Assembly: GCA_964501785.1 (NCBI GenBank)
Contig: CAZCUD010000004.1
Location: forward strand, 111,652-175,651
Reading direction: 5' to 3'
Source: an uncultured Bifidobacteriaceae bacterium
Lineage (GTDB): Bacteria > Actinomycetota > Acidimicrobiia > IMCC26256 > PALSA-555
Length of the DNA stretch: 64,000 nucleotides
Of the stretch, positions 1-8,602 are shown one piece after another. A model generated the notes under the pieces. That model was not told where the DNA came from. It ran no database searches and was given only the letters and a program-made list of their open reading frames with translations. Numbering within the stretch: the stretch's first letter is position 1; every line of letters begins with the position of its first letter. The position numbers and the translations under genes are program-made.

Positions 1-896
1 CGGAGCGTCAGGTGATCCTCGAGGAGATCCGGATGCGCGACGACGCGCCGGAGGATCTCGTCCACGACGTGTTCGCGGAGGCGATCTTCCCGTCGCACCC
101 GATCGGGCGTGAGGTGATCGGCACGCCGGGCACGATCGAAGCGATGACGCCCGCGCAGATCGGCGACTTCCACCGGGCCCACTACCACCCGAGCAACGTC
201 GTCGTCGCGGCCGCCGGCAACCTCGAGCACGAGCGAGTCGTCGACCTGGTCGAACGAGGGCTCCCGTCGACGTTCGGCGCCCGGCCTCCCCGCGACGCCT
301 GGCCCGGGAAGCCGGCACCGCGATCCGTCGCGGTGCTGGAGCGCGACACGGAGCAGGCCCACGTCGTGCTCGGGATGCGCGCGCTGCGCACCGACGACCC
401 CGACCGATACGCGCTCGGCGTCATGAACCAGGCGTTGGGCGGGGGGATGTCGTCGCGACTGTTCCAGGAGGTGCGCGAGAAGCGCGGGCTCGCGTACTCC
501 GTGTACTCCTACCGCGCGGCCTACGAGGAGACCGGCGCGCTGGCGGTGGCTGCGGGGACGAGCCCCGAACGGCTCGACGAGCTGCTCGGCGTCGTCGACC
601 ACGAGCTGAGCCGGCTGGTCGCCGACGGCGGGATCTCCGACGGCGAGCTCGATGCCGCCAAGGGCCACCTCACGGGGTCGCTGGCGCTCTCGCTCGAGAG
701 CTCGAGCTCGCGGATGCACCGGCTGGGGCGCAGCGAGCTGACCATGGGCGAGATCCCCTCGCTGGACGAGCTCGTCGCCGAGGTCGTCCGGGTCGACGCG
801 ACGGACGTTCGGCGGGTGGTCGAGCGGGTGATGGCAACGGACGAGCGGACCCTGGCCGTCGTCGGGCCGATCGACGAGACCGCGATCGGCTCGTGA
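1..896 (+). CDS. M16 (pitrilysin/insulinase) family zinc peptidase, C-terminal part; 5' end lies outside the window
   Basis: ORF 12..896 is open to the window edge. The sequence is typical of the M16 inactive/C-terminal domain (AHYHPSNVVVAAAGN, MSSRLFQEVREKRGLAYSVYS). Its position upstream of dapB matches actinobacterial synteny. Confidence 0.8.
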   Translation, partial: ERQVILEEIRMRDDAPEDLVHDVFAEAIFPSHPIGREVIGTPGTIEAMTPAQIGDFHRAHYHPSNVVVAAAGNLEHERVVDLVERGLPSTFGARPPRDAWPGKPAPRSVAVLERDTEQAHVVLGMRALRTDDPDRYALGVMNQALGGGMSSRLFQEVREKRGLAYSVYSYRAAYEETGALAVAAGTSPERLDELLGVVDHELSRLVADGGISDGELDAAKGHLTGSLALSLESSSSRMHRLGRSELTMGEIPSLDELVAEVVRVDATDVRRVVERVMATDERTLAVVGPIDETAIGS

Positions 897-912
897 CGGT
901 TACCGTGGGCGA

Positions 913-1704
913 ATGATCCGCGTCGGCGTGTTCGGCGCCGGTGGGCGCATGGGCTCCACCGTGTGCGCGGCGGTGGCCGGGGACCCCGAACTCGAGCTGG
1001 TCGCCGCGGTCGATCCGTTCCACGGCGGGATCGATCTGCGTCAGCTCGGCGTCCCCGACACGGGGCTCCAGGTCGCCCGGGCGGCCGAGGCGATGCTCGA
1101 CGCGGGGGCCGACGTGGCGGTCGACTTCACCGTCCTCGACGCGGCCCGCGACAACCTCTACTGGTGCGCCGACAACGGCCTCCACGCCGTGGTCGGGACC
1201 ACCGGGTTCAGCGACCACGACCTCGCCGACTTCGGGAGCCGCTTCGACGTCAGCCCCGCCAACGCGCTGATCGCGCCCAACTTCGCGATCGGCGCCGTGC
1301 TCATGATGCGCTTCGCCGAGCTGGCCGCGCCGTACTTCGAGACGGCGGAGGTGATCGAGCTGCACCACGACGAGAAGGTCGACGCGCCGTCGGGGACCGC
1401 CATGCTGACCGCGGCCCGCATGGCTGCCGCCTCGCCCGACTGGGCGCCCGACCCGACCGAGAAGGTGGTGACCGAGGGGGCACGCGGGGGAGAGGGGCCG
1501 GGCGGGATCCGCGTGCACTCGGTCCGCCTCCGGGGGCTCGTCGCACACCAGGAGGTCGTGCTCGGCACGACCGGGCAGTCGTTGACCGTGCGCCACGACT
1601 CGTACGACCGCACGTCGTTCATGCCGGGCGTGCTGCTCGCGATCCGCAAGGTGCGTGAGCACCCCGGGCTGACGGTGGGGCTCGACGCGTACCTGACGGG
1701 GTGA
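913..1704 (+). CDS. dapB: 4-hydroxy-tetrahydrodipicolinate reductase
   Basis: ATG at 913. The N-terminal Rossmann motif is MIRVGVFGAGGRMG, and the HHDEKVDAPSGTA motif is characteristic of DapB. 263 aa. Confidence 0.9.
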   Translation: MIRVGVFGAGGRMGSTVCAAVAGDPELELVAAVDPFHGGIDLRQLGVPDTGLQVARAAEAMLDAGADVAVDFTVLDAARDNLYWCADNGLHAVVGTTGFSDHDLADFGSRFDVSPANALIAPNFAIGAVLMMRFAELAAPYFETAEVIELHHDEKVDAPSGTAMLTAARMAAASPDWAPDPTEKVVTEGARGGEGPGGIRVHSVRLRGLVAHQEVVLGTTGQSLTVRHDSYDRTSFMPGVLLAIRKVREHPGLTVGLDAYLTG

Positions 1705-2294
1705 ACGCACCGGCCCCGGCGTCCGAGGAGTCGCGCGGGCGCGTCTACGCAGGCGCCTACGAGTGCGTGGGGCGGTTCGGCCTCGCCAAGACCACCGTCG
1801 ACGACGTCGCCCGGGCATCGGGGGTGTCCCGGGCGACGATCTACCGGATGTTCCCCGGCGGTCGCGACCAGCTCCTGCGCGAGACCGTCGGGTGGGAGAT
1901 GAACCGCTTCTTCGCCCGCCTCGCAGAAGCGGTCGCGGATGCCGACGACCTCGAGACGCGGCTCGAGCGCGGCCTCGCGTTCGCGCACCGGTCGGTCGTC
2001 GAGCACGAAGTGCTGCAGAAGGTCCTCACCACCGAGCCCGAGGCACTGCTCGCGCTGATGACCGTCGAGCAGCACCGGGTGCTGCGCTACATCGTCGACT
2101 ACCTGCGTCCCCTGCTCGACGCCGAGCGCGACGCGGGTCGCCTCCGCCCCGACGTCGACCCCGACCTCGCGGCCGACTACGTCGCGCGGATGCTGCTGTC
2201 GCTCATCGGGACTCCGGGACGCTGGGATCTCGACGATCCCGAAGCCGTACGTCGGCTGGTGCGAACCGAGCTGCTCGGGCCCCTCACCCGCTGA
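1701..2294 (+). CDS. TetR family transcriptional regulator
   Basis: The GTG start overlaps the dapB stop (GTGA). The HTH segment is GLAKTTVDDVARASGVSRATIYRMFPGG. Confidence 0.85.
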   Translation: MNAPAPASEESRGRVYAGAYECVGRFGLAKTTVDDVARASGVSRATIYRMFPGGRDQLLRETVGWEMNRFFARLAEAVADADDLETRLERGLAFAHRSVVEHEVLQKVLTTEPEALLALMTVEQHRVLRYIVDYLRPLLDAERDAGRLRPDVDPDLAADYVARMLLSLIGTPGRWDLDDPEAVRRLVRTELLGPLTR

Positions 2295-2359
2295 TCGGAT
2301 CCCGCGCACCGACCGGGCGACCCGTGCGCATCGGCGCGGACCGCTAGTGTCCCCCGGCC

Positions 2360-2938
2360 ATGGGAACGCGTCGCGCGCTGCTGCTCACCGTCGTGATCGG
2401 CGGACTCGCGGTGCTCGGCGTGGCCTGTGGCGGAGGTGACGACGACTCGGGCACGACCCAGAAGCGGCCGAGTGGCCCGGCCTTCGACGTCGAGGATCCG
2501 TGCACGCTCCTGAGCGCGTCGCAGGTGGAGAAGGTGTTCGGCGAGCCCGTGACCGTCGATGCCACCAACAACGCGAGCCCGCTGACGACCGACTGCGCCT
2601 ACGTGGTCGGGGATCCGGCCGCCCCGACCGGGCGCCTGGTGGCGAACGTCGTCTTCCCCGCCTTCGGGGCGGGGGAGGGCGCCGACGCCCTCAGCGTCGT
2701 CGAGAGCGACCGGGCGCTGGCGCAGATCGCCGGTGAGGGGGTGTTCGACCTGGGCCTCGGGGTGCCGGGCTTCCTCGAGAGCCGACGCTCGTTCGTCGAG
2801 TTCTTCGTGCGCCCCAAGCTCGCCGTCTCGCTCCAGTGGTACCCGACCGGTGGCGCCCCCGAAGGCACCCCGGTGACCGAAGAGGTCGAGGCCGATCTCA
2901 CGGCCCTCGCCACCCACATCACCAGCCGCCTCGGCTGA
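2360..2938 (+). CDS. putative secreted protein or lipoprotein (unknown function)
   Basis: ATG at 2360. The N-terminal hydrophobic signal ends in a lipobox-like LGVACGGG. No catalytic motif was recognised. Confidence 0.6.
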   Translation: MGTRRALLLTVVIGGLAVLGVACGGGDDDSGTTQKRPSGPAFDVEDPCTLLSASQVEKVFGEPVTVDATNNASPLTTDCAYVVGDPAAPTGRLVANVVFPAFGAGEGADALSVVESDRALAQIAGEGVFDLGLGVPGFLESRRSFVEFFVRPKLAVSLQWYPTGGAPEGTPVTEEVEADLTALATHITSRLG

Positions 2939-2967
2939 GGCCTCCCCCGTTCGGGCGGAGGCCGTTT
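2939..2967 (+). terminator. stem-loop after the 2360..2938 gene
   Basis: GGCCTCC..(CCCG TT CGGG)..GGAGGCC is followed by GTTT and starts 1 nt after the stop codon. Confidence 0.55.
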
Positions 2968-2983
2968 GAGTAAGCGCTACTCA
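2967..2983. promoter_or_regulatory. inverted repeat TGAGTA-N5-TACTCA (HAIR-like TTGAGT-N7-ACTCA), candidate operator
   Basis: The sequence is TGAGTAAGCGCTACTCA, 75 bp upstream of the ATG at 3058. Nearly identical arms recur at 8617..8635. Confidence 0.35.
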
Positions 2984-3057
2984 TGCCCGCACGTCCTCTC
3001 CTCGTCAGACTCCGACCAGCAGACGAGCCGGAGCATCGCGACCAGGAGGACCCGCAC

Positions 3058-3498
3058 ATGGGCATGTTCAAGGACCTGAAGAAGCTCTCCGACCAGGGCA
3101 AGGAGATGGGGAAGAAGTCGGGTCGGCCGACCTCCATGATGGGGATGATCAAGGACACCCCCAACATGATCAGCCAGGCCACCGCCGCGGTCGACGACGC
3201 CATGGCGCTGCAGGAGGACATGCAGGCCCAGCAGGCGCTGCTCCAGACCGGGACCCCGGCCGCGGGCACCATCAAGAGCTTCCAGGACACCGGCACGCTC
3301 GTGAACTTCAACCCGCAGGTCGTCATCGAGCTCGATGTCGAGGCCGACGGCCAGGCGCCGTACTCGGTGCAGACGTCGACGGCGGTGCCCCAGACGATGC
3401 TCGCCCAGCTCACCCCGGGCAACCGGCTCGCGATCCGGGTCGACCCGAGCAACCCCCAGAACATCGTCATCGACTGGGCTCGCTTCGGCCAGGTCTGA
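3058..3498 (+). CDS. hypothetical protein (146 aa)
   Basis: The ATG at 3058 is preceded by AGGAGGA (3044-3050). This start is preferred over the ORF-track start at 2983. The N-terminus is Lys/Met/Gln-rich (MGMFKDLKKLSDQGKEMGKK). No recognised domain. Confidence 0.6.
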   Translation: MGMFKDLKKLSDQGKEMGKKSGRPTSMMGMIKDTPNMISQATAAVDDAMALQEDMQAQQALLQTGTPAAGTIKSFQDTGTLVNFNPQVVIELDVEADGQAPYSVQTSTAVPQTMLAQLTPGNRLAIRVDPSNPQNIVIDWARFGQV

Positions 3499-3527
3499 AC
3501 CGGCCGCGCACCACACGGACGACGCGA

Positions 3528-3553
3528 CGGGCGGCCCCGGTCGGGGCCGCCCG
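3528..3553 (+). terminator. strong GC hairpin
   Basis: CGGGCGGCCCC-GGTC-GGGGCCGCCCG forms a perfect 11-bp stem, 30 nt after the stop at 3498. Confidence 0.6.
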
Positions 3554-3644
3554 GGCGCGACAGGGGTTCGTCGCGAGTCCCCGCGCGTGGCGCGAGGACG
3601 GTTATCGTGACGCCCGTTCGGCGGGCCTTCGAAGGGGCGGAGCA

Positions 3645-4907
3645 GTGATGCGGCAGGGGCGGATGCGGCGACTCGGTGCGGCCGTCGCGGGCGCGATCCT
3701 CGTGGGCGCGGCCGGCATGGTGGTCATGAGCGCGCCCGCGGGCGCAGTCACGGTCTCCACCGAGGCCGAGCTCGACGCGGCCTGGGCCGACGGAGGGGTC
3801 ACCGAGATCTCCCTCGCGAACGACATCACCCTCACCTGCGGCGGAGCGGGCGAGCTCGACCGCTCGGCCGCGACGGGTGTCACCGTGCTCGGCAACGGCT
3901 TCACGATCACCCAGACCTGCGCGTTCTCCCGGGTCATGGACAAGGACGTCGGCGGCGGCGTCATCACCCTCGACGACGTCACCATCACGGGCGGCAACAC
4001 GACCGGCGACGGCGCCGGCATCCGGGCGCTGGGCACCGACCTCGTCATCGTCGACTCGACGATCACCGGCAACACGACGACCGCCGGCGACGGTGGCGCC
4101 GCGTTCGTCGGTGGTCCGGTCACGGTCACGAGCTCGACGATCAGCGACAACCATGCGCCCGCAGGTCAGGGCGGCGGGGTCTGGACGAGCAGCGACCTCG
4201 ACATCACCGACTCGACCTTCACGCAGAACACGGCCGCCGGGGAAGCCTTCTCCTTTGGCGGCGGCGCCTTCGCCAGCGGCACCGTCACCGTGACCGGCTC
4301 GACGTTCGACCAGAACTCGGCGGTCGGCGGCGGTGCGATCCAGGGTGGTAGCGCAATCATCGTCAACTCCACGATCACCGGGAACACCGCGACGAGCGTC
4401 GACCCGGCGTTCAGCGGTGGCGCGATCCGCACCAATGACGACACTTCGCTCGTGTACGCCACCATCGTCGGCAACACGGCTGCGGACGCCGCCAACCTCC
4501 AGGTCAACGCAGCGCTCACCTCGTTCGGGTCCGTCGTCGCCGAGCCGCTCGGCGGCGGTGTCAACTGCGTCGCCGACAGCGCGACGTCCAACGGCTACAA
4601 CTTCTCCGACGACGCGACCTGCGGCTTCACCGGCACCGGTGACCGTGAGGACGCGGGTGATCCCGACGTCCGAGCGCTCGCCGACAACGGTGGACCGACG
4701 CAGACGATGCTGCCCGCAGCGGCGAGCCCGCTGCTCGACTTCATCCCCGCGGCGAGCTGCCAGGACGACGGCGCGAGCGGGGTCACCACCGACCAGCGCG
4801 GCGTCACCCGTCCGCAAGGCGGTTCGTGTGACGTCGGCGCGGTCGAGGTCGAGGTCCCGGTGCCGCCGGCGCCGTTCATCGTGCTCGAGCCGACCTTCAC
4901 CGGCTGA
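3645..4907 (+). CDS. secreted right-handed beta-helix repeat protein (PMP-type GGA[I/F] / FxxN repeats, 'choice-of-anchor Q'-like C-terminus)
   Basis: The signal peptide is ...VVMSAPAGA. It has repeated ITGNT/STISDN/FTQN/FDQN and GGAI/GGAF motifs. The C-terminal DQRGVTRPQGGSCDVGAVEV is typical of this family. Confidence 0.75.
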   Translation: MMRQGRMRRLGAAVAGAILVGAAGMVVMSAPAGAVTVSTEAELDAAWADGGVTEISLANDITLTCGGAGELDRSAATGVTVLGNGFTITQTCAFSRVMDKDVGGGVITLDDVTITGGNTTGDGAGIRALGTDLVIVDSTITGNTTTAGDGGAAFVGGPVTVTSSTISDNHAPAGQGGGVWTSSDLDITDSTFTQNTAAGEAFSFGGGAFASGTVTVTGSTFDQNSAVGGGAIQGGSAIIVNSTITGNTATSVDPAFSGGAIRTNDDTSLVYATIVGNTAADAANLQVNAALTSFGSVVAEPLGGGVNCVADSATSNGYNFSDDATCGFTGTGDREDAGDPDVRALADNGGPTQTMLPAAASPLLDFIPAASCQDDGASGVTTDQRGVTRPQGGSCDVGAVEVEVPVPPAPFIVLEPTFTG

Positions 4908-5075
4908 GCCGCACCCGCCCGCGAGATCTCGCCGGTCCGACCGGAGCACCGGGCCTTCGTCGCGCGCCCCGGTCCGGGTCTCCCAGGTCCGACTCCGCCA
5001 CCCGTCGTGTGTGCGACCCGCACCTGCGACACGATGTGGCCGTTGACAAACAAGGGGTCTTGATCCTGGATCGTG

Positions 5076-5093
5076 GCTAGGCCTTTGCCTAGC
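5076..5093 (-). terminator. hairpin downstream of the tRNA
   Basis: GCTAGGC-CTTT-GCCTAGC forms a perfect 7-bp stem about 20 nt beyond the tRNA 3' end on the minus strand. Confidence 0.4.
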
Positions 5094-5113
5094 AGTGGTC
5101 CATACTTGGACGG

Positions 5114-5195
5114 TCCCCCTGGCGGGATTCGAACCCGCATTCCTGCCGGAACCGCCTTCCAAAGGCGGCGCGTATTCCAGTTCCGCCACAGGGGG
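5114..5195 (-). tRNA. class II tRNA (13-nt variable arm) with anticodon UGG (Pro); Leu-like D-arm, Pro-like acceptor (C1:G72, A73); CCA not encoded
   Basis: Manual fold of the minus strand:
- acceptor CCCCCTG/CAGGGGG, 7 Watson-Crick (WC) pairs
- U8 G9
- D-arm GCGG-AACTGGAATA-CGC
- G26
- anticodon stem CCGCC/GGCGG with loop TTTGGAA
- V-arm TTCC-GGCA-GGAA-T
- T-arm GCGGG-TTCGAAT-CCCGC
- discriminator A. Confidence 0.8.
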
Positions 5196-5522
5196 GTCGA
5201 GCGAGGGGTGACGGCCGGCCGCTGGCACGGCCGACCGCCATGCCCTCATGGGTTACCGATCAGCTACGGGGGAGGCATCGCCTTCTCCTTTCGGTAGCGC
5301 AGGGGTCGGGGTGGTGGTGGTTGGCTTGCAAGGCCTCCACCACCCCTTCCCCCAAGAGATGTCAAAACCTCCGGACCACACGGCCAGCCAAGCGATCCAG
5401 TCCCGTCCGTATGTCTTCCAGGGACCTTCACGCCCGGTTCAGGCAGCGGGCACGGAGGTTCGGAGTGAAGACTACATCAGTGTGATTCGGCTGCGCGGGG
5501 ACTGTTCTGGCACAGCCGCGTT

Positions 5523-5546
5523 GTGGATTGATAGGTGGATTGATAG
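5523..5546. repeat. perfect tandem 12-mer GTGGATTGATAG x2
   Basis: Read directly at 5523-5534 and 5535-5546, preceded by TT. It lies in the AT-richer non-coding stretch. Confidence 0.9.
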
Positions 5547-5734
5547 AGGGATTTCGCTGTCCCTACCCGACGGGCGAGAAGCAGCACGACCCACTCCGGG
5601 AGGAGCGGGATGAGCGCACGAAGATCGAGCTCACCGCCGGCAGAGGCGCTGAAGGCTCTGGTCGGGGCGCTGCTGGACGATGGCGACACTTCCGGCCCCA
5701 AGGGACGGCGGAACTCGTCGCCGCCTTATTGCGG

Positions 5735-6394
5735 CTACCCTTGTTGGATCGGATTTCCCGTAGAAGGGACTGATTGAGATGGCACGTCCGATTGACCCCT
5801 GACGGGGGCGGTTTCTGACCCCCGAACCGTCGCAGCCGCCGACTCGGCGGCTGCGTCCGCGTCGGCCATCCGTTGGGCTAGGCGTTCGAAGTTCTCGTAG
5901 ACCACTCGGGTCCCCTGCTTGTATCGCAGGTACTCAACGGCCAGTTCCCACCGTTCCCACGATTTCACGATGACCCCACCTAGGGACTCGTGAAGTGATG
6001 CGAAGTCGATTGCGCCCTGCGCTTCCATGATGGCGATGTCCTCGAGGAAGTTGGGTTCGCGCATCATTTGGAAGTAGGCGAGCTTCCGCTTCTTTCGCAG
6101 GCGCTTTACCGTCTTGTAGACGCCCTTCGGCGTGCGAAGTGCGGATGACACGCGGCGCGACGCGATCATCACATCCTCATCCCACCGCCGAGAGATGTCA
6201 GCGAGTAGCTGCGCGTTGCGAGATCGTTGGGCTTCAATCAGTTGCTGCTTCGCGTTTTCGATCTGCACCTTCGCCTGAATAATCTGCTGGCGAGTAAACA
6301 CGACGGCGACGGCGGCAGCGATCAGGCCTAGGGCCCCGATCCCGGATGCAACAGCGGTGACGGTTTCTTGCCACGAGGCGAGCACCGGACTCAA
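5735..6394 (-). CDS. hypothetical membrane-anchored coiled-coil protein (219 aa); possible IS passenger gene
   Basis: The TTG start overlaps the stop of the transposase fragment (TTGA). It has one N-terminal TM helix (VASGIGALGLIAAAVAVVFT) followed by a Gln/Lys-rich helical region. Codon usage is visibly AT-richer than its neighbours. Confidence 0.55.
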   Translation of the reverse strand: MSPVLASWQETVTAVASGIGALGLIAAAVAVVFTRQQIIQAKVQIENAKQQLIEAQRSRNAQLLADISRRWDEDVMIASRRVSSALRTPKGVYKTVKRLRKKRKLAYFQMMREPNFLEDIAIMEAQGAIDFASLHESLGGVIVKSWERWELAVEYLRYKQGTRVVYENFERLAQRMADADAAAESAAATVRGSETAPVRGQSDVPSQSVPSTGNPIQQG

Positions 6395-6732
6395 GACTCC
6401 CCGCCCCCTTCAGTGCGCCGACGCTTGGTGCGTGGCTGACGGTACATGAGCCGCTCGCCGTGCATCTGGCCCATCAAGCGGGCCATGCGCTGACTGTTCC
6501 TCATCTTCCGTGTCGTGTACCGGAAGTCGCATTCGGCCAGGTAGCGATGTAGGTGCCGGTGGCTGACCGCGTGGTAGGTCCATCGATTGACCGCTTCAGT
6601 TGCGAGACGATTCTTTCGACCTGATTCGTTGAGATCTCGTCGCGGGCGTACTCGCCTCCGGAGTGCCACACGGTGTCGTGCTGGGGGGACTGCTTCCCGA
6701 TCCAGCTGTAAACCCACGTGCTCATCGGTCAT
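6391..6732 (-). pseudogene. IS1595-family (ISXO2-like) transposase, C-terminal fragment, frameshifted and 5'-truncated
   Basis: Two overlapping minus-strand frames together give the family's C-terminal signature. One frame reads HDTVWHSGGEYARDEISTNQVERIVSQLKRSIDG. The other reads TYHAVSHRHLHRYLAECDFRYTTRKM..GERLMYRQ. No N-terminal Zn-ribbon or DDE part is present. Confidence 0.6.
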
Positions 6733-6793
6733 GAGCCGCGAACCCTGGTAGTGGACCTCGCAGTGAATCGCGTGACGTGCGACACATTGACGG

Positions 6794-6820
6794 TGAGACG
6801 ATCTCGGTCGTATCGTCTCA
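6794..6820. promoter_or_regulatory. inverted repeat TGAGACGAT-N9-ATCGTCTCA, candidate TetR operator
   Basis: Perfect 9-bp arms end 4 nt before the TetR ATG at 6825. Confidence 0.3.
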
Positions 6821-6824
6821 GGTG

Positions 6825-7472
6825 ATGACGCTCGTCACCGAGCCCACCCCGGAGCAGGCCGTCGGATCGATCGCGGCCCCGGGGGTCGAGGAGCGGGTGA
6901 TCGAAGCCACGTTGGCCTGCATCGCCCGGCACGGGCTGTCGAAGACGACGATCGACGACGTCGCCCGCCAGGCCGGCTGCTCCCGGGCGACGCTGTACCG
7001 CTACTTCACCAACAAGCGCGACCTGGTCGAGCGCGTGCTCGCGCGCGAGGTCGACCGGGTGACGGGCGACCTGCTCGCGGCGGCCGCCGCCGAAGCCACG
7101 CTCGAGGACGCGGTCACCGCGATGTACGTCACTGCGGGCCGCGAGCTGGCTTCCAACGACGCGCTTCGATTCGTCGCCGACTTCGAGCCCGAGAAGCTCC
7201 TCCCGCACCTCACCTTCGCGGGTGGCGACGGGTTCCTCCGTGACGCGTCGATCGCGCTGGCGCCCGCGCTCGAGCCCTACCTCGGCGACGGTGCACGACG
7301 CGCCGCCGAGTGGATCGCGCGTCTGGGCCTCGTGCTCTGGTTCTCGCCGACCGCCCCGGTCGCGATGTCCGACGAGGCCGCGATGCGCGCGTACGTCCAC
7401 GAGCTCGTCGTGCCGGCGATCCGTCCGGCACCCGAGGACTCCGTCTCCGTCCAGCCGCACTCCACCCAATAG
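6825..7472 (+). CDS. TetR family transcriptional regulator
   Basis: The ATG at 6825 is preferred (the ORF track starts at GTG 6777). The HTH is GLSKTTIDDVARQAGCSRATLYRYFTNK. Confidence 0.85.
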   Translation: MTLVTEPTPEQAVGSIAAPGVEERVIEATLACIARHGLSKTTIDDVARQAGCSRATLYRYFTNKRDLVERVLAREVDRVTGDLLAAAAAEATLEDAVTAMYVTAGRELASNDALRFVADFEPEKLLPHLTFAGGDGFLRDASIALAPALEPYLGDGARRAAEWIARLGLVLWFSPTAPVAMSDEAAMRAYVHELVVPAIRPAPEDSVSVQPHSTQ

Positions 7473-7483
7473 GGGGGTCCCCC

Positions 7484-8602
7484 ATGGCAGTGACCAACGA
7501 AGAGCTCATCGGTCGTTCCGGGCTGAACGACGTCGATCAGATCCTGGCGGTCACCAACACCGACGTCGAGGAGGCGCTGCACGCCGTGCGGGCCGAGAGC
7601 GACGCGATCTTCACGTGGGACTACGAGCAGAGCCGCAAGCCCTTGCTCAAGCTCTACGAGAAGGCCAAGACCTCCCAGTGGAACTCCAACGACCTGCCCT
7701 GGGACACCGACGTCGACCAGGAGAAGGTCGTCATCGCCAACCAGGCGCTCAACAACTTCGGCGAGAACATGGACACCACCGGCACGCCCTTCGAGAAGTG
7801 GGGCGACAAGGAGTGGGTCGAGTTCGGCATCCAGTCGCAGAACTGGACGCTCTCGCAGTTCATGCACGGTGAGCAGGGCGCCCTGATCTGCACCGCGCAG
7901 ATCGTCGAGACGGTGCCGTGGATCGACGCCAAGTACTACGCGTCGACCCAGGTGATGGACGAGGCACGCCACGTCGAGGTCTTCGCGAAGTACCTCGACG
8001 AGAAGCTCTCGGGCCACTACCCGATCAACGCGCACCTCAAGATGCTCCTCGACGACATCATCGCCGACTCCCGTTGGGACATGACCTACCTCGGCATGCA
8101 GATCATGGTCGAGGGGCTCGCGCTGGCCGCGTTCGGCTTCATGCACCAGTTCACGACCGAGCCGCTGATCAAGCAGCTGCTCCGCTACGTCATGAGCGAC
8201 GAGGCGCGCCACGTGGCGTTCGGTGTGCTGTCGCTCCAGGAGTACTACGACCAGCTCTCGGCCAAGGAGATCAGGGAGCGCCAGGAGTTCGCCTTCGAAG
8301 CCGCGGTGCGCATGCGCGACCGGTTCCTCCAGCAGGAGGTCTGGGAGCGGATGGGCGTCGACGTGAAGGAGGCGGTCAAGGTCGTCATCCAGGCGCCCGA
8401 TCGCCACGTCTTCCAGGGCCTGCTGTTCTCGAAGATCGTGCCCAACTGCAAGAAGCTCGGCCTCCTCGATGCCGCCGACGGCTGGCTGCGGGAGCGCTTC
8501 ACCGAGCTCGGCGTCATCCAGTTCGAGGACTGGGCCGACACCGGCGAGGAGTACGCGACCCTCGACGAGGTGGCCAAGGACCGCGAGACCGTCGACGCCT
8601 GA
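7484..8602 (+). CDS. ferritin-like diiron-carboxylate protein (AurF-like oxygenase family)
   Basis: The ATG at 7484 is 12 nt after the TetR stop. It has two ExxH motifs (MDEARHVEVF, SDEARHVAFG) plus upstream acidic helices (MHGEQGAL, MVEGLAL). Confidence 0.7.
   Translation: MAVTNEELIGRSGLNDVDQILAVTNTDVEEALHAVRAESDAIFTWDYEQSRKPLLKLYEKAKTSQWNSNDLPWDTDVDQEKVVIANQALNNFGENMDTTGTPFEKWGDKEWVEFGIQSQNWTLSQFMHGEQGALICTAQIVETVPWIDAKYYASTQVMDEARHVEVFAKYLDEKLSGHYPINAHLKMLLDDIIADSRWDMTYLGMQIMVEGLALAAFGFMHQFTTEPLIKQLLRYVMSDEARHVAFGVLSLQEYYDQLSAKEIRERQEFAFEAAVRMRDRFLQQEVWERMGVDVKEAVKVVIQAPDRHVFQGLLFSKIVPNCKKLGLLDAADGWLRERFTELGVIQFEDWADTGEEYATLDEVAKDRETVDA

What the first reader, a model, noticed from the sequence alone, without database searches (positions are those of the whole stretch)
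5114..5195. Chimeric tRNA: proline anticodon and acceptor identity on a leucine-type class II (long variable arm) body
**What the sequence shows.** The minus strand folds into a flawless cloverleaf: a 7-bp acceptor, 5-bp anticodon and T stems that are all Watson-Crick, a canonical GTTCGAATC T-loop, and U8, A14, G18G19 and U33. It also has a 13-nt variable arm (TTCC-GGCA-GGAA-T) and a 3-bp D-stem with a G13/A22 mismatch, so it is a class II tRNA. Its D-arm (UGGCGGAACUGGAAUACGCG) is almost the same as the E. coli tRNA-Leu D-arm as I recall it (UGGCGGAAUUGGUAGACGCG).

**Why it is odd.** The anticodon loop is UUUGGAA, giving anticodon UGG (Pro). The acceptor has C1:G72 plus A73, the bacterial tRNA-Pro hallmark. 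G35, G36, A73 and G72 are the known ProRS identity set. Bacterial class II tRNAs are normally only Leu, Ser and Tyr (plus Sec).

**Possible consequences.** LeuRS does not read the anticodon and relies on A73 plus D-arm/tertiary features. The molecule could therefore be a Pro tRNA with a novel architecture. It could instead be dual-identity or mistranslating, inserting Leu at CCN codons. Position 37 is A rather than the m1G37 expected after G36, which is also atypical.

**Context.** It sits in an AT-richer, IS-associated insert, so it may be horizontally acquired.
Basis: partly seen in the sequence, partly recalled or inferred. Interest (0 to 1): 0.7.

Follow-up and report, generated by a model that had tools for sequence, protein, structure and literature searches.

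The report
Transposon-borne leucine-type tRNA reading proline codons
The odd tRNA is real and belongs to a widespread, apparently undescribed family of leucine-shaped tRNAs with a proline anticodon that ride inside IS1595-type jumping genes, whose transposase genes carry two or three special codons matched to that anticodon; the copy in this window is an orphan left by a decayed element.

Summary
Window 5114-5195(-) is an intact class II tRNA with anticodon UGG on a tRNA-Leu-type body.

It is not a one-off chimera. I collected 52 relatives from many bacterial phyla, and the cloverleaf shows strong compensatory covariation.

The tRNA is cargo of one clade of IS1595-family transposons:
- 23 of 27 close-clade transposase loci carry it, including 5 of 5 in a prospective test.
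- Seven elements (1.8-4.6 kb) have terminal inverted repeats and 8-bp target duplications that enclose both transposase and tRNA.

The linked transposase genes hold anticodon-matched "sentinel" Pro codons at up to three fixed sites (N-terminal motif, linker, C-terminal end): CCA with UGG tRNAs, CCT with AGG tRNAs. Structurally conserved prolines use ordinary host codons. Close relatives without the tRNA use CCG at the N-terminal site.

The window holds a decayed copy: a transposase C-terminal remnant that still has its CCA sentinel (6433-6435), a DUF4760 accessory gene, and the intact tRNA.

Best explanation: a private tRNA-codon pair that couples transposase translation to the element's own tRNA.

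The amino acid carried is unresolved. LeuRS identity elements are near-invariant and ProRS elements are mostly absent, yet the sentinel sites tolerate both Pro and Leu.

No description of this system was found in the searchable literature.

The parts
5114..5195 (-). Intact class II tRNA: Leu-type body, anticodon UGG, A37, A73, C1:G72, 13-nt variable arm. It is the orphaned cargo tRNA of a decayed IS1595-family transposon.
   Evidence: ARAGORN; Rfam tRNA model 56.7 bits; family covariance model R1 88.2 bits; sequence.
5159..5161 (-). Anticodon UGG (tRNA positions 34-36).
   Evidence: Sequence; ARAGORN places the anticodon at position 35 of its call. G35 and G36 are present in 44 of 47 tabulated family members.
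5735..6394 (-). Accessory (passenger) ORF of 219 aa with a DUF4760 domain, lying between the transposase remnant and the tRNA. The arrangement transposase -> ORF -> tRNA is the same as in L026, L011 and L096.
   Evidence: Pfam PF15956, E 3.4e-10; arrangement map. No PADLOC hit. The database holds no relative other than this copy itself.
6430..6579 (-). Remnant of the IS1595-family transposase: only the last ~49 residues are recognisable, inside ORF 6391-6732. The N-terminal ~80% of the gene is missing.
   Evidence: tblastn against tRNA-linked transposases: 51-53% identity to residues ~269-330. Weak Pfam DDE_Tnp_IS1595 hit to the profile's C-terminal end.
6433..6435 (-). C-terminal sentinel codon CCA (...GERLMYRQ-[CCA]-RTKRR...), the exact Watson-Crick partner of anticodon UGG.
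   Evidence: CCA is about 5% of Pro codons in the window's long genes. The same position is CCA in 17 UGG-linked transposase genes.
5000..8500 (.). Stretch of lower G+C (62-68% against ~72%) that contains the element remnant. No terminal inverted repeats are recognisable.
   Evidence: Composition profile. Terminal-repeat consensus searches found nothing within 6 mismatches of 21.

Best explanation
The gene is an intact member of a family of tRNA-Leu-derived tRNAs whose anticodon reads proline codons (UGG in most, AGG in some). The family is carried as cargo inside one clade of IS1595-family transposons.

Shown:
- The tRNA lies inside the transposon ends.
- It is linked to that transposase clade.
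- Its cloverleaf is under purifying selection.
- The linked transposase genes place the exactly matching Pro codon (CCA for UGG, CCT for AGG) at up to three fixed sites, while other prolines use host-preferred codons.

Inferred:
- The tRNA's job is to decode these sentinel codons, so that transposase synthesis is coupled to the element's own tRNA. This would be a private rare-codon/tRNA pair that works like bldA tRNA and TTA codons in Streptomyces, but is self-contained in a mobile element.
- The sentinel sites are positions where relatives tolerate Pro, Leu and other residues. What is selected is therefore codon identity, not the amino acid.

Unresolved:
- Which amino acid is delivered. The body carries the complete bacterial LeuRS identity set, and LeuRS ignores the anticodon, so leucine is my first guess (about 50%). 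Charging by ProRS through G35, G36 and A73 is second (about 35%).

In this window the transposase has decayed to a C-terminal stub that still holds its CCA sentinel. The tRNA is therefore an orphan. If expressed, it would still act on the host's rare CCA codons.
For: Family and structure:
- Covariation: 99.3% of stem cells paired, 16 of 20 pairs with compensatory changes, 0 of 500 shuffles as good.

Linkage to the transposase:
- An IS1595 transposase or its remnant lies next to the tRNA in 11 of 25 tRNA-selected loci.
- In the reverse direction, loci chosen only by the transposase carry the tRNA in 11 of 13 close-clade metagenome loci, 5 of 7 viral-contig loci, 2 of 2 first look-ups and 5 of 5 prospective look-ups.
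- Close-clade loci without it truly lack it when searched with the unfiltered model.

The tRNA is inside the element:
- Seven elements have terminal inverted repeats plus an 8-bp target-site duplication enclosing both transposase and tRNA: L120, L133, L167, L137, L296, L300, L128.
- Two of them split host genes: a GMC oxidoreductase gene, whose reading frame is restored when the element is removed, and a flavodoxin-like gene.

Codon matching:
- CCA is 31-35% of Pro codons in linked transposase genes in every GC3 bin, against 0-20% in unlinked genes, where it tracks the background.
- N-terminal site: CCA in 19 of 21 UGG elements (binomial p = 5e-17), CCT or CCC in AGG elements, CCG in tRNA-less L140 and L144.
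- Linker site: CCA is 23 of 38 Pro codons against 25 of 164 in tRNA-less genes; CCT in 3 of 4 AGG elements.
- C-terminal site: with UGG, CCA 17, CCG 2, CCT 1; with AGG, CCT 3 of 4.
- In L226, L274, L300 and L299 the only CCA codons of the gene are sentinel sites. In L167 and L222 the only CCT codons are.
- Fisher test of CCA/CCT against UGG/AGG: p = 6e-6.
- The window's remnant keeps CCA at the C-terminal site.

Amino-acid identity:
- A73 46/47, A15 47/47, U48 46/47, GG in the D loop 43/47; G72 3/47, G15:C48 0/47, scored against the identity sets in PMC9976931.
- Model R1 scores leuT at 68.8 bits against proM at 44.2 bits.
Against: - No expression, aminoacylation or proteomic data exist; decoding is inferred from codon statistics alone.
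- Host tRNA-Pro(UGG) can also read CCA, so gating cannot be absolute, and the advantage over simply using CCG is not obvious.
- At the C-terminal site many distant tRNA-less relatives also have NCT codons (CCT x13, ACT x6, GCT x3). A DNA-level constraint may therefore contribute there.
- The statistics are not phylogeny-corrected. The AGG elements represent only about 3-4 independent lineages.
- L026, whose transposase -> ORF -> tRNA arrangement resembles the window's, has no CCA codon in its transposase gene.
- Some members have C33 or non-canonical T loops, which could impair decoding.
- In the window the transposase is dead and no terminal repeats remain, so the proposed function cannot operate here as such.
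Confidence: 0.6

Rival explanations
1. Leucine-inserting mistranslator. The tRNA is charged by LeuRS and puts Leu at CCA/CCN codons across the proteome. Its selected role is that amino-acid change, for example generating Pro/Leu protein variants or inactivating a fraction of transposase as self-restraint, rather than decoding kinetics.
For: - The full LeuRS identity set is near-invariant, and the variable arm varies freely from 13 to 46 nt, as expected for LeuRS.
- The body scores as tRNA-Leu.
- Sister tRNAs with the same body carry UGC, UUA and GGA anticodons, which only an anticodon-blind synthetase would charge.
- Engineered tRNA-Leu(UGG) does mis-insert Leu at Pro codons in yeast (PMC11028032).
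- CCA is rare in high-GC hosts (5% of Pro codons in the window), which would limit toxicity.
Against: - There is no systematic Pro/Leu exchange between linked and unlinked transposases.
- tRNA-less close relatives encode Pro (CCG) at the N-terminal sentinel, so Leu is not required there.
- If the sites tolerate both residues, the amino-acid change alone gives no reason to conserve CCA.
- A self-inhibitory design could be escaped by a synonymous mutation.
- tRNA-Leu(UGG) is strongly toxic in yeast.
Confidence: 0.2
2. A true proline tRNA of unusual architecture. It arose from tRNA-Leu by an anticodon shift and is now charged by ProRS through G35, G36 and A73. It simply supplies extra decoding capacity for a rare Pro codon used by the element.
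For: - G35 and G36 are conserved in 44 of 47 members and A73 in 46 of 47. These are the strongest ProRS determinants.
- Sentinel sites are Pro (CCG) in tRNA-less close relatives.
- The window's copy additionally has C1:G72.
- Two elements (L136, L299) carry a 74-nt, class I-size UGG tRNA in the same role.
Against: - G72 is absent in 44 of 47 members, G15:C48 in 47 of 47, and G37 in 40 of 47.
- The LeuRS determinants are all retained, so LeuRS should still charge the tRNA.
- This reading gives no explanation for the sister tRNAs with UGC and UUA anticodons.
- From my own general knowledge, not tested here: in class II synthetase complexes the variable region faces the enzyme, so a 13-46 nt arm may clash with ProRS.
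Confidence: 0.2
3. A non-translational RNA. The tRNA-like gene serves the transposon in some other way: as a transcription terminator or insulator, as a processing signal, as a decoy for tRNA-targeting toxins, or as a landing pad for integrases. The codon pattern would then be coincidental or DNA-level.
For: - Some members have C33, non-canonical T loops or very long variable arms.
- A distant IS1595 branch carries VapC/PIN tRNases.
Against: - The anticodon bases G35 and G36 are conserved while the stems covary freely.
- Anticodon and sentinel codons covary (CCA with UGG, CCT with AGG) at sites hundreds of bases from the tRNA gene.
- The full set of tertiary-fold positions and A73 are conserved.
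- No toxin gene lies in the tRNA-bearing elements.
Confidence: 0.08
4. In this particular genome the gene is a silent relic: not expressed, with no current function, and awaiting decay together with the rest of the element.
For: - The transposase is reduced to about 49 recognisable residues and no terminal repeats survive.
- No sigma-70-like promoter is found on the tRNA's strand within 4900-6900.
- No complete CCA end is encoded.
Against: - All 20 stem pairs and all conserved tertiary positions are intact, and the tRNA scores 88 bits against the family model. The neighbouring transposase gene, in contrast, is largely gone.
- The promoter scan is crude and is not tuned to high-GC actinomycete-type promoters.
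- A missing encoded CCA end is normal in many bacteria (my own knowledge).
Confidence: 0.3

Closest known systems
bldA tRNA-Leu(UAA) and rare TTA codons in Streptomyces (from my own knowledge of the established literature)
   Same: A dedicated tRNA for a codon that is rare in a high-GC genome. A few target genes carry that codon at specific places, so their translation depends on the tRNA.
   Different: bldA is a normal chromosomal tRNA-Leu that reads a Leu codon and regulates host developmental genes. Here the tRNA has a mismatched body and anticodon, and it sits inside a transposon together with its apparent target, the transposase gene.
allo-tRNAs (Mukai et al. 2017, PMC5389517; reviewed in PMC7609411)
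   Same: Metagenome-discovered bacterial class II tRNAs whose anticodons do not correspond to their body identity. [quoted passage not shown]
   Different: allo-tRNAs have 8/4 or 9/3 acceptor/T-arm geometry and serine identity, and UGG/proline is not mentioned. The present family has canonical 7/5 geometry, Leu-type identity elements and A73, is physically inside IS1595 transposons, and has matched codons in the transposase gene.
tRNAProX / tRNAProA with ProRSx in Streptomyces and Kitasatospora
   Same: Naturally encoded bacterial tRNAs with dual or mismatched identity in high-GC actinomycetes, proposed to cause deliberate mistranslation.
   Different: The polarity is opposite: those have a Pro body with Ala, Thr or Asn anticodons, and they sit next to a dedicated ProRS paralogue. 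Here no synthetase gene is adjacent, the body is Leu-type, and the partner gene is a transposase.
Engineered tRNA-Leu(UGG) mistranslators (PMC11028032)
   Same: The same combination of a Leu body with a UGG anticodon. It inserts Leu at Pro codons because LeuRS ignores the anticodon.
   Different: That is a synthetic construct in yeast and is strongly toxic. The present family is natural, bacterial, evolutionarily conserved and carried on a mobile element.
IS1595-family insertion sequences with passenger genes (ISfinder subgroups such as ISNwi1+ and ISPna2+; Siguier et al. 2009; from memory)
   Same: A transposase with a zinc ribbon and a DDE domain, short terminal inverted repeats, 8-bp target-site duplications, and optional passenger genes.
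   Different: I know of no described member with a tRNA gene as passenger, or with codons in the transposase gene matched to it. None was found in the searchable literature.
Nematode nev-tRNAs (class II tRNAs with Gly or Ile anticodons, charged with Leu; from memory)
   Same: A class II Leu-type body with a non-Leu anticodon, charged by an anticodon-blind LeuRS.
   Different: Those are eukaryotic, not on a mobile element, have different anticodons, and have no matched target codons.

Membership tests
Canonical bacterial tRNA-Pro | Class I architecture (4-5 nt variable loop) | tested here: not met
   The window tRNA has a 13-nt variable arm; the family range is 13-46 nt. E. coli proM has a short loop.
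Canonical bacterial tRNA-Pro | Anticodon determinants G35 and G36 | tested here: met
   The window anticodon is UGG. 44 of 47 family members have G35 and G36.
Canonical bacterial tRNA-Pro | Acceptor determinants A73 and G72 (C1:G72) | tested here: met
   Met in the window (C1:G72, A73). G72 is present in only 3 of 47 family members, so it is not a property of the family.
Canonical bacterial tRNA-Pro | G15:C48 Levitt pair and G37 (PMC9976931) | tested here: not met
   The window has A15, U48 and A37. G15:C48 occurs in 0 of 47 members and G37 in 7 of 47.
Bacterial tRNA-Leu | LeuRS identity set: A73, A15-U48, G18G19, A20a-type D loop; long variable arm of any sequence (PMC9976931) | tested here: met
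   The window has all of these. Family: A73 46/47, A15 47/47, U48 46/47, GG in the D loop 43/47. D-arm region matches E. coli leuT at 17 of 20. Model R1 scores leuT at 68.8 bits against proM at 44.2 bits.
Bacterial tRNA-Leu | A leucine anticodon (NAG or YAA) | tested here: not met
   The anticodon is UGG. No family member collected has a Leu anticodon.
Bacterial tRNA-Leu | Aminoacylation with leucine by LeuRS | not testable with these tools
   This needs in vitro charging or analysis of the aminoacyl-tRNA in vivo.
allo-tRNA | 8/4 or 9/3 acceptor/T-stem geometry and serine identity | tested here: not met
   The geometry is 7-bp acceptor plus 5-bp T stem. A73 and the Leu-type D arm replace the Ser elements G73 and C11-G24.
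tRNAProX/ProRSx-type mistranslation module | Pro-type tRNA body with a non-Pro anticodon, next to a ProRS paralogue | tested here: not met
   The body is Leu-type and the anticodon is Pro. No synthetase-like ORF lies within several kb in the window or in related loci.
IS1595-family transposon (the element that carries the tRNA) | Transposase with Zn_ribbon_IS1595 and DDE_Tnp_IS1595 domains | tested here: met
   Related loci carry full-length transposases (PF12760 plus PF12762, E down to 7e-45). In the window only the C-terminal ~49 residues survive.
IS1595-family transposon (the element that carries the tRNA) | Terminal inverted repeats and 8-bp target-site duplication | tested here: inconclusive
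   Met in seven related elements. Not met in the window, where no terminal repeat is recognisable; the window copy is a truncated remnant.
Rare-codon/tRNA regulatory pair (bldA-like) | The codon is rare in the host and concentrated at specific sites of the target gene | tested here: met
   CCA is 5% of Pro codons in the window's long genes. Sentinel sites are described.
Rare-codon/tRNA regulatory pair (bldA-like) | Target protein level depends on the tRNA | not testable with these tools
   This needs reporter or transposition assays with codon and tRNA mutants.

The most novel reading that the evidence does not exclude
A clade of IS1595 transposons runs a private piece of genetic code. It carries a LeuRS-charged tRNA whose anticodon reads a host-rare proline codon, and it places that codon at two or three tolerant sites in its own transposase gene. 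Transposase synthesis would then be licensed by the element's own tRNA, with a low level of Pro-to-Leu recoding of the host proteome as a side effect. Sister elements with UUA or UGC anticodons would be the same device retargeted to a stop codon or an alanine codon. As far as I could find, this would be the first natural case of a transposable element encoding a codon-reassigning tRNA matched to its own gene.
Probability: 0.35. Interest if true: 0.92.

Novelty: new variant of a known kind. Interest (0 to 1): 0.8.

Why it matters
If the inference holds, there are four consequences.
- Insertion sequences can carry tRNA genes as functional cargo and use codon choice in their own transposase gene as a control device. 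I could not find this layer of transposon regulation described anywhere.
- It would add a widespread natural example of a bacterial tRNA whose body and anticodon belong to different amino acids. That bears directly on how stable the genetic code is, and on whether regulated mistranslation or codon ambiguity is used in nature.
- Genome annotation pipelines will call these genes tRNA-Pro. If they carry leucine, tRNA inventories and codon-reassignment screens are affected.
- The family offers ready-made, naturally evolved tRNAs for synthetic biology. Variable arms of 13-46 nt are tolerated, and anticodons can be swapped among UGG, AGG, UGC and UUA.

For this window specifically, the practical message is narrower. 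The tRNA is an orphan of a dead element. If it is expressed and charged with leucine, it could cause low-level Pro-to-Leu errors at rare CCA codons.

Tried and rejected
- Near-identical DNA in plasmids, phages and E. coli: nothing useful.
- Blind inverted-repeat search around three tRNA/transposase pairs: nothing convincing. The ends were found only after a split host gene gave boundaries.
- Hypothesis that Pro codons in the linked transposases replace Leu of relatives (programmed Pro-to-Leu recoding needed for activity): no such columns found.
- Extended mRNA-anticodon-loop complementarity beyond the codon: inspected by eye in the output. It does not covary with N37, so I rejected it.
- My own interim claim that the second sentinel sits at a universally conserved Pro (alignment column 158) was wrong. 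The site is in the variable linker.
- The small conserved ORF has no fixed CCA position.
- The idea that in tRNA -> transposase arrangements the tRNA lies outside the element: rejected, because L137 has terminal repeats and a target duplication outside the tRNA.
- Homology between the accessory proteins and the VapC/PIN cargo of distant plasmid-borne IS1595 elements: none.
- Pfam and PADLOC searches of the accessory proteins: no hits.
- Provenance of the window through exact-protein look-ups: failed.
- Whole-sequence similarity to ordinary tRNAs in the fetched loci was not discriminating. It was replaced by the covariance-model comparison with E. coli leuT and proM.
- Terminal repeats in the window: none. 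The TCCAAGTATGGA just 3' of the tRNA matches the repeat core only weakly (8 of 12), so I did not use it.
Full report
**1. The observation**

The minus strand of window 5114-5195 encodes a tRNA.
- ARAGORN calls tRNA-Pro(tgg).
- The Rfam tRNA model matches full-length at 56.7 bits.
- Read directly, it has a 7-bp acceptor stem starting C1:G72, U8, and a 3-bp D stem with a G13/A22 mismatch.
- The D loop is AACUGGAAU, the anticodon stem has 5 bp, and the loop is UUUGGAA (anticodon UGG, A37).
- The variable arm is 13 nt, the T arm is canonical, and the discriminator is A73.

That includes the recalled E. coli tRNA-Leu D arm: window positions 8-27 match E. coli leuT at 17 of 20. The gene lies in a stretch of 62-64% G+C within DNA of about 72% G+C.

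**2. It is a family, not a one-off**

I scanned one genome per bacterial species for class II tRNAs with the loop CUUUGGAAG. They come from Alphaproteobacteria, Gammaproteobacteria, Acidobacteria, Gemmatimonadota, Planctomycetota, Chloroflexota, Spirochaetia and others.

In an alignment of 22 of them, the cloverleaf is 99.3% paired, and 16 of 20 pairs show compensatory changes. No shuffle out of 500 did as well, and slid-register controls reach about 40% pairing. These are RNAs under selection, not pseudogenes or assembly errors.

**3. Linkage to an IS1595-family transposase**

Clustering the ORFs around these tRNAs revealed one recurrent neighbour: a protein of about 320 aa with Zn_ribbon_IS1595 and DDE_Tnp_IS1595 domains. 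It, or a remnant of it, lies next to the tRNA in 11 of 25 loci. In the window only the last ~49 residues survive, at 6430-6579.

The reverse test used loci selected only by the transposase:

| Locus set | Close-clade loci with the tRNA |
|---|---|
| Metagenome loci | 11 of 13 |
| Viral-contig loci | 5 of 7 |
| First two look-ups | 2 of 2 |
| Five transposases chosen afterwards as a prospective test | 5 of 5 |

- Only a small minority of the more distant IS1595 transposases have the tRNA.
- Three named plasmid examples have none.
- The exceptions in the close clade truly lack it when searched with the unfiltered covariance model.
- ARAGORN misses members with very long variable arms. Rfam and my own model find them.

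**4. The tRNA is inside the transposon**

In L120 the unit interrupts a GMC oxidoreductase gene. The element spans 2891-5376. It has perfect 22-bp terminal inverted repeats and an 8-bp target duplication (TTAATAAA). Removing it restores the host reading frame.

Six further elements have inverted repeats of the same type, with consensus about CGG(G/A)AGTATGTACTTGAC, and 8-bp duplications:

| Element | Target-site duplication | Note |
|---|---|---|
| L133 | TTCTCGAG | |
| L167 | AAAAAAAT | |
| L137 | AAAAAGTA | |
| L296 | AAACGTTT | splits a flavodoxin-like gene |
| L300 | AAAGGAAA | minimal element, 1.8 kb |
| L128 | AAATATAT | |

All seven enclose both the transposase gene and the tRNA. Gene order varies: the tRNA is convergent just after the transposase gene, just upstream of it on the same strand, or beyond an accessory ORF. 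A copy of the repeat core (TACTTGAC) also forms the -35 region of the transposase promoter. A conserved small ORF (GPKPD-LKIEGDW...GWP) and variable accessory ORFs without known domains accompany the pair. In the window the accessory ORF is a DUF4760 protein.

**5. Anticodon-matched sentinel codons**

In 20 tRNA-linked transposase genes, CCA makes up 31-35% of Pro codons in every GC3 bin. In 52 unlinked relatives it follows the background frequency of A-ending codons. For example, at GC3 0.70-0.85 it is 6%, against 33% in linked genes. The excess sits at three sites.

| Site | UGG elements | AGG elements | tRNA-less relatives |
|---|---|---|---|
| N-terminal motif L-[P]-x-A-C-(S/A)-D-E | CCA 19 of 21, CCT 2 (binomial p = 5e-17 against the 11% seen at conserved Pro columns) | CCT (L128), CCC (L215) | CCG (L140, L144); CCA in AT-rich L216 |
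| Linker between HRIRxAM and GxVExDE | 20 of 24 genes have a CCA-coded Pro (23 of 38 codons) | CCT in 3 of 4 | CCA 25 of 164 codons in 126 genes |
| Codon after GKRLxYxx, a few codons before the stop | CCA 17, CCG 2, CCT 1 | CCT in 3 of 4 | ORF ends exactly there in L140 and L144 |

- Universally conserved prolines use CCG or CCC; CCA is 11% there.
- In L226, L274, L299 and L300 the only CCA codons of the gene are sentinel sites.
- In L167 and L222 the only CCT codons are sentinel sites.
- The association of CCA/CCT with UGG/AGG gives Fisher p = 6e-6. This is not corrected for phylogeny.
- The window's remnant keeps ...GERLMYRQ-[CCA]-RTKRR... at 6433-6435.
- In the window's own long genes CCA is only 5% of Pro codons.

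Caveat: at the C-terminal site many distant tRNA-less relatives have NCT codons, so a DNA-level constraint may add to the signal there.

**6. Which amino acid?**

I used the identity sets summarised in PMC9976931.
- LeuRS determinants are essentially invariant in 47 tabulated members: A73 46/47, A15 47/47, U48 46/47, and GG in the D loop 43/47.
- Variable-arm length ranges freely from 13 to 46 nt.
- ProRS determinants other than G35, G36 and A73 are mostly absent: G72 3/47 (the window is one of the three), G15:C48 0/47, G37 7/47.
- The family covariance model scores E. coli leuT at 68.8 bits and proM at 44.2 bits, even though proM shares the anticodon loop.
- Sister tRNAs with the same body next to homologous transposases carry UGC, UUA and possibly GGA anticodons. 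This fits a synthetase that ignores the anticodon.

Against a simple leucine reading:
- The linked transposases show no Pro-to-Leu recoding signature.
- The N-terminal sentinel is Pro (CCG) in tRNA-less close relatives.
- Across more distant relatives the three sentinel positions vary. The linker site has P, K or L; the C-terminal site has P, L, T, A or S; the N-terminal site has P, A, I, M or N.

I therefore conclude that what is conserved is the codon, not the residue. This fits a control device based on decoding rather than on the amino acid inserted. My estimate is Leu about 50%, Pro about 35%, and other or no charging about 15%.

**7. Proposed mechanism**

*Shown:*
- The tRNA is transposon cargo.
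- Its fold and anticodon are conserved.
- The matched codons sit at fixed sites in the transposase gene.

*Inferred:*
- The tRNA decodes those codons, which are rare in the mostly high-GC hosts. Transposase synthesis is thereby tied to expression of the element's own tRNA.
- This works like bldA/TTA in Streptomyces, but it is self-contained in a mobile element.
- In the window the transposase gene has been truncated and the ends are gone. The tRNA is therefore an orphan. Its perfect stems suggest recent decay or continued use.

**8. Comparison with what is known**

The nearest described cases are these:
- allo-tRNAs, which have 8/4 or 9/3 geometry and Ser identity;
- the tRNAProX/ProRSx modules of Streptomyces, which have the opposite polarity and an adjacent synthetase (from memory);
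- engineered tRNA-Leu(UGG), which is toxic in yeast;
- nematode nev-tRNAs (from memory);
- IS1595 elements with passenger genes (from memory).

None combines a Leu-type 7/5 tRNA with a Pro anticodon, residence inside an IS, and matched codons in the transposase gene. Six full-text searches found no description of this. The library lacks most subscription journals and ISfinder, so prior description cannot be excluded.

**9. Verdict**

The chimeric identity and the IS context are right. The weight placed on the 'Pro-type acceptor' is not a family property.
- What is really there is an orphaned cargo tRNA of a previously unrecognised tRNA-carrying clade of IS1595 transposons.
- Interest is high (0.8): the association and the codon matching are strong and were validated prospectively, although the mechanism still rests on sequence statistics.
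- I rate novelty conservatively as a new variant of a known kind, namely natural tRNAs with mismatched identity and rare-codon tRNA control. The more radical reading is stated separately under the novel case.

Noticed in passing
L244:5600-5681(-), with transposase L244:4001-4894: A Leu-type class II tRNA with anticodon UUA, which would read the UAA stop codon. Its transposase gene has TAA exactly at the C-terminal sentinel position, followed by three codons and a second TAA. This may be a natural ochre-suppressor version of the system, or simply the ordinary stop codon.
   Followed up: partly
L218:2491-2575(-); L223:5264-5347(-): Leu-type class II tRNAs beside close or distant IS1595 transposases with anticodon UGC (Ala; no G3:U70) and with loop CUGGAAA (GGA?). 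The L218 transposase uses GCA for 8 of 24 Ala codons, against a 13% background of A-ending codons.
   Followed up: partly
L136:3864-3937(+); L299:5048-5121(-): Class I-size (74-nt) UGG tRNAs in the same position in two elements. Both keep A15 and U48, and the transposase sentinels are CCA. The L136 element also contains a second tRNA (3774-3847) inside its ends.
   Followed up: partly
L120:5153-5314(+) and equivalents in L132, L133, L134, L137, L144, L079, L213: A conserved small ORF of about 45-55 aa (GPKPD-LKIEGDW--A--KA--KKRP--GWP) accompanies the transposase or the accessory gene in most elements. It has no Pfam match, and its function is unknown.
   Followed up: partly
L120:4393-5169(+); L128:4326-5261(+); L053:590-1363(+); also L098 and L141: A recurrent accessory protein family ('C3', 257-311 aa) that is always divergent from the tRNA. 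It has no Pfam or PADLOC hit, apart from a sub-threshold winged-helix hint in one member. ORFs of similar size and position in L296-L298 were not compared.
   Followed up: partly
L292 (Methylobacterium oryzae pMOC1, 757-3310); L294 (Roseomonas marmotae plasmid, 3971-6450): Distant, tRNA-less IS1595 transposases on named plasmids are followed by an operon of a hypothetical protein, a VapC/PIN toxin (a family of tRNA-cleaving nucleases) and a small ORF. This is a different kind of tRNA-related cargo in the same IS family.
   Followed up: partly
L135 and L215 anticodon loops; L137, L167 and L168 T and D loops: Two members have C33 instead of the near-universal U33. Three members combine the T loop UGCAAAU with a D loop lacking GG, which suggests covariation of the tertiary elbow contacts.
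   Followed up: no
L220:1916-2008(+); L213:6255-6341(+); L219 (whole locus): Other unusual class II tRNAs lie near IS1595 transposases in viral contigs: one with anticodon UAU and G73, one of unclear anticodon. L219 has a phage tRNA array of more than 15 genes flanking a transposase.
   Followed up: no
Upstream flanks of the tRNA in L011, L018, L022, L026, L044, L072 and L076: A G+C-rich hairpin lies 5-20 nt upstream of the tRNA 5' end in many members. It may be the terminator of the preceding gene or a processing signal.
   Followed up: no
window:3645-4907(+); window:6777-7472(+): The neighbours of the remnant are a secreted right-handed beta-helix/pectate-lyase-like protein (0 CCA among its 16 Pro codons) and an ORF that looks like a TetR-type regulator by eye (not searched against Pfam), which abuts the truncated transposase.
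   Followed up: no
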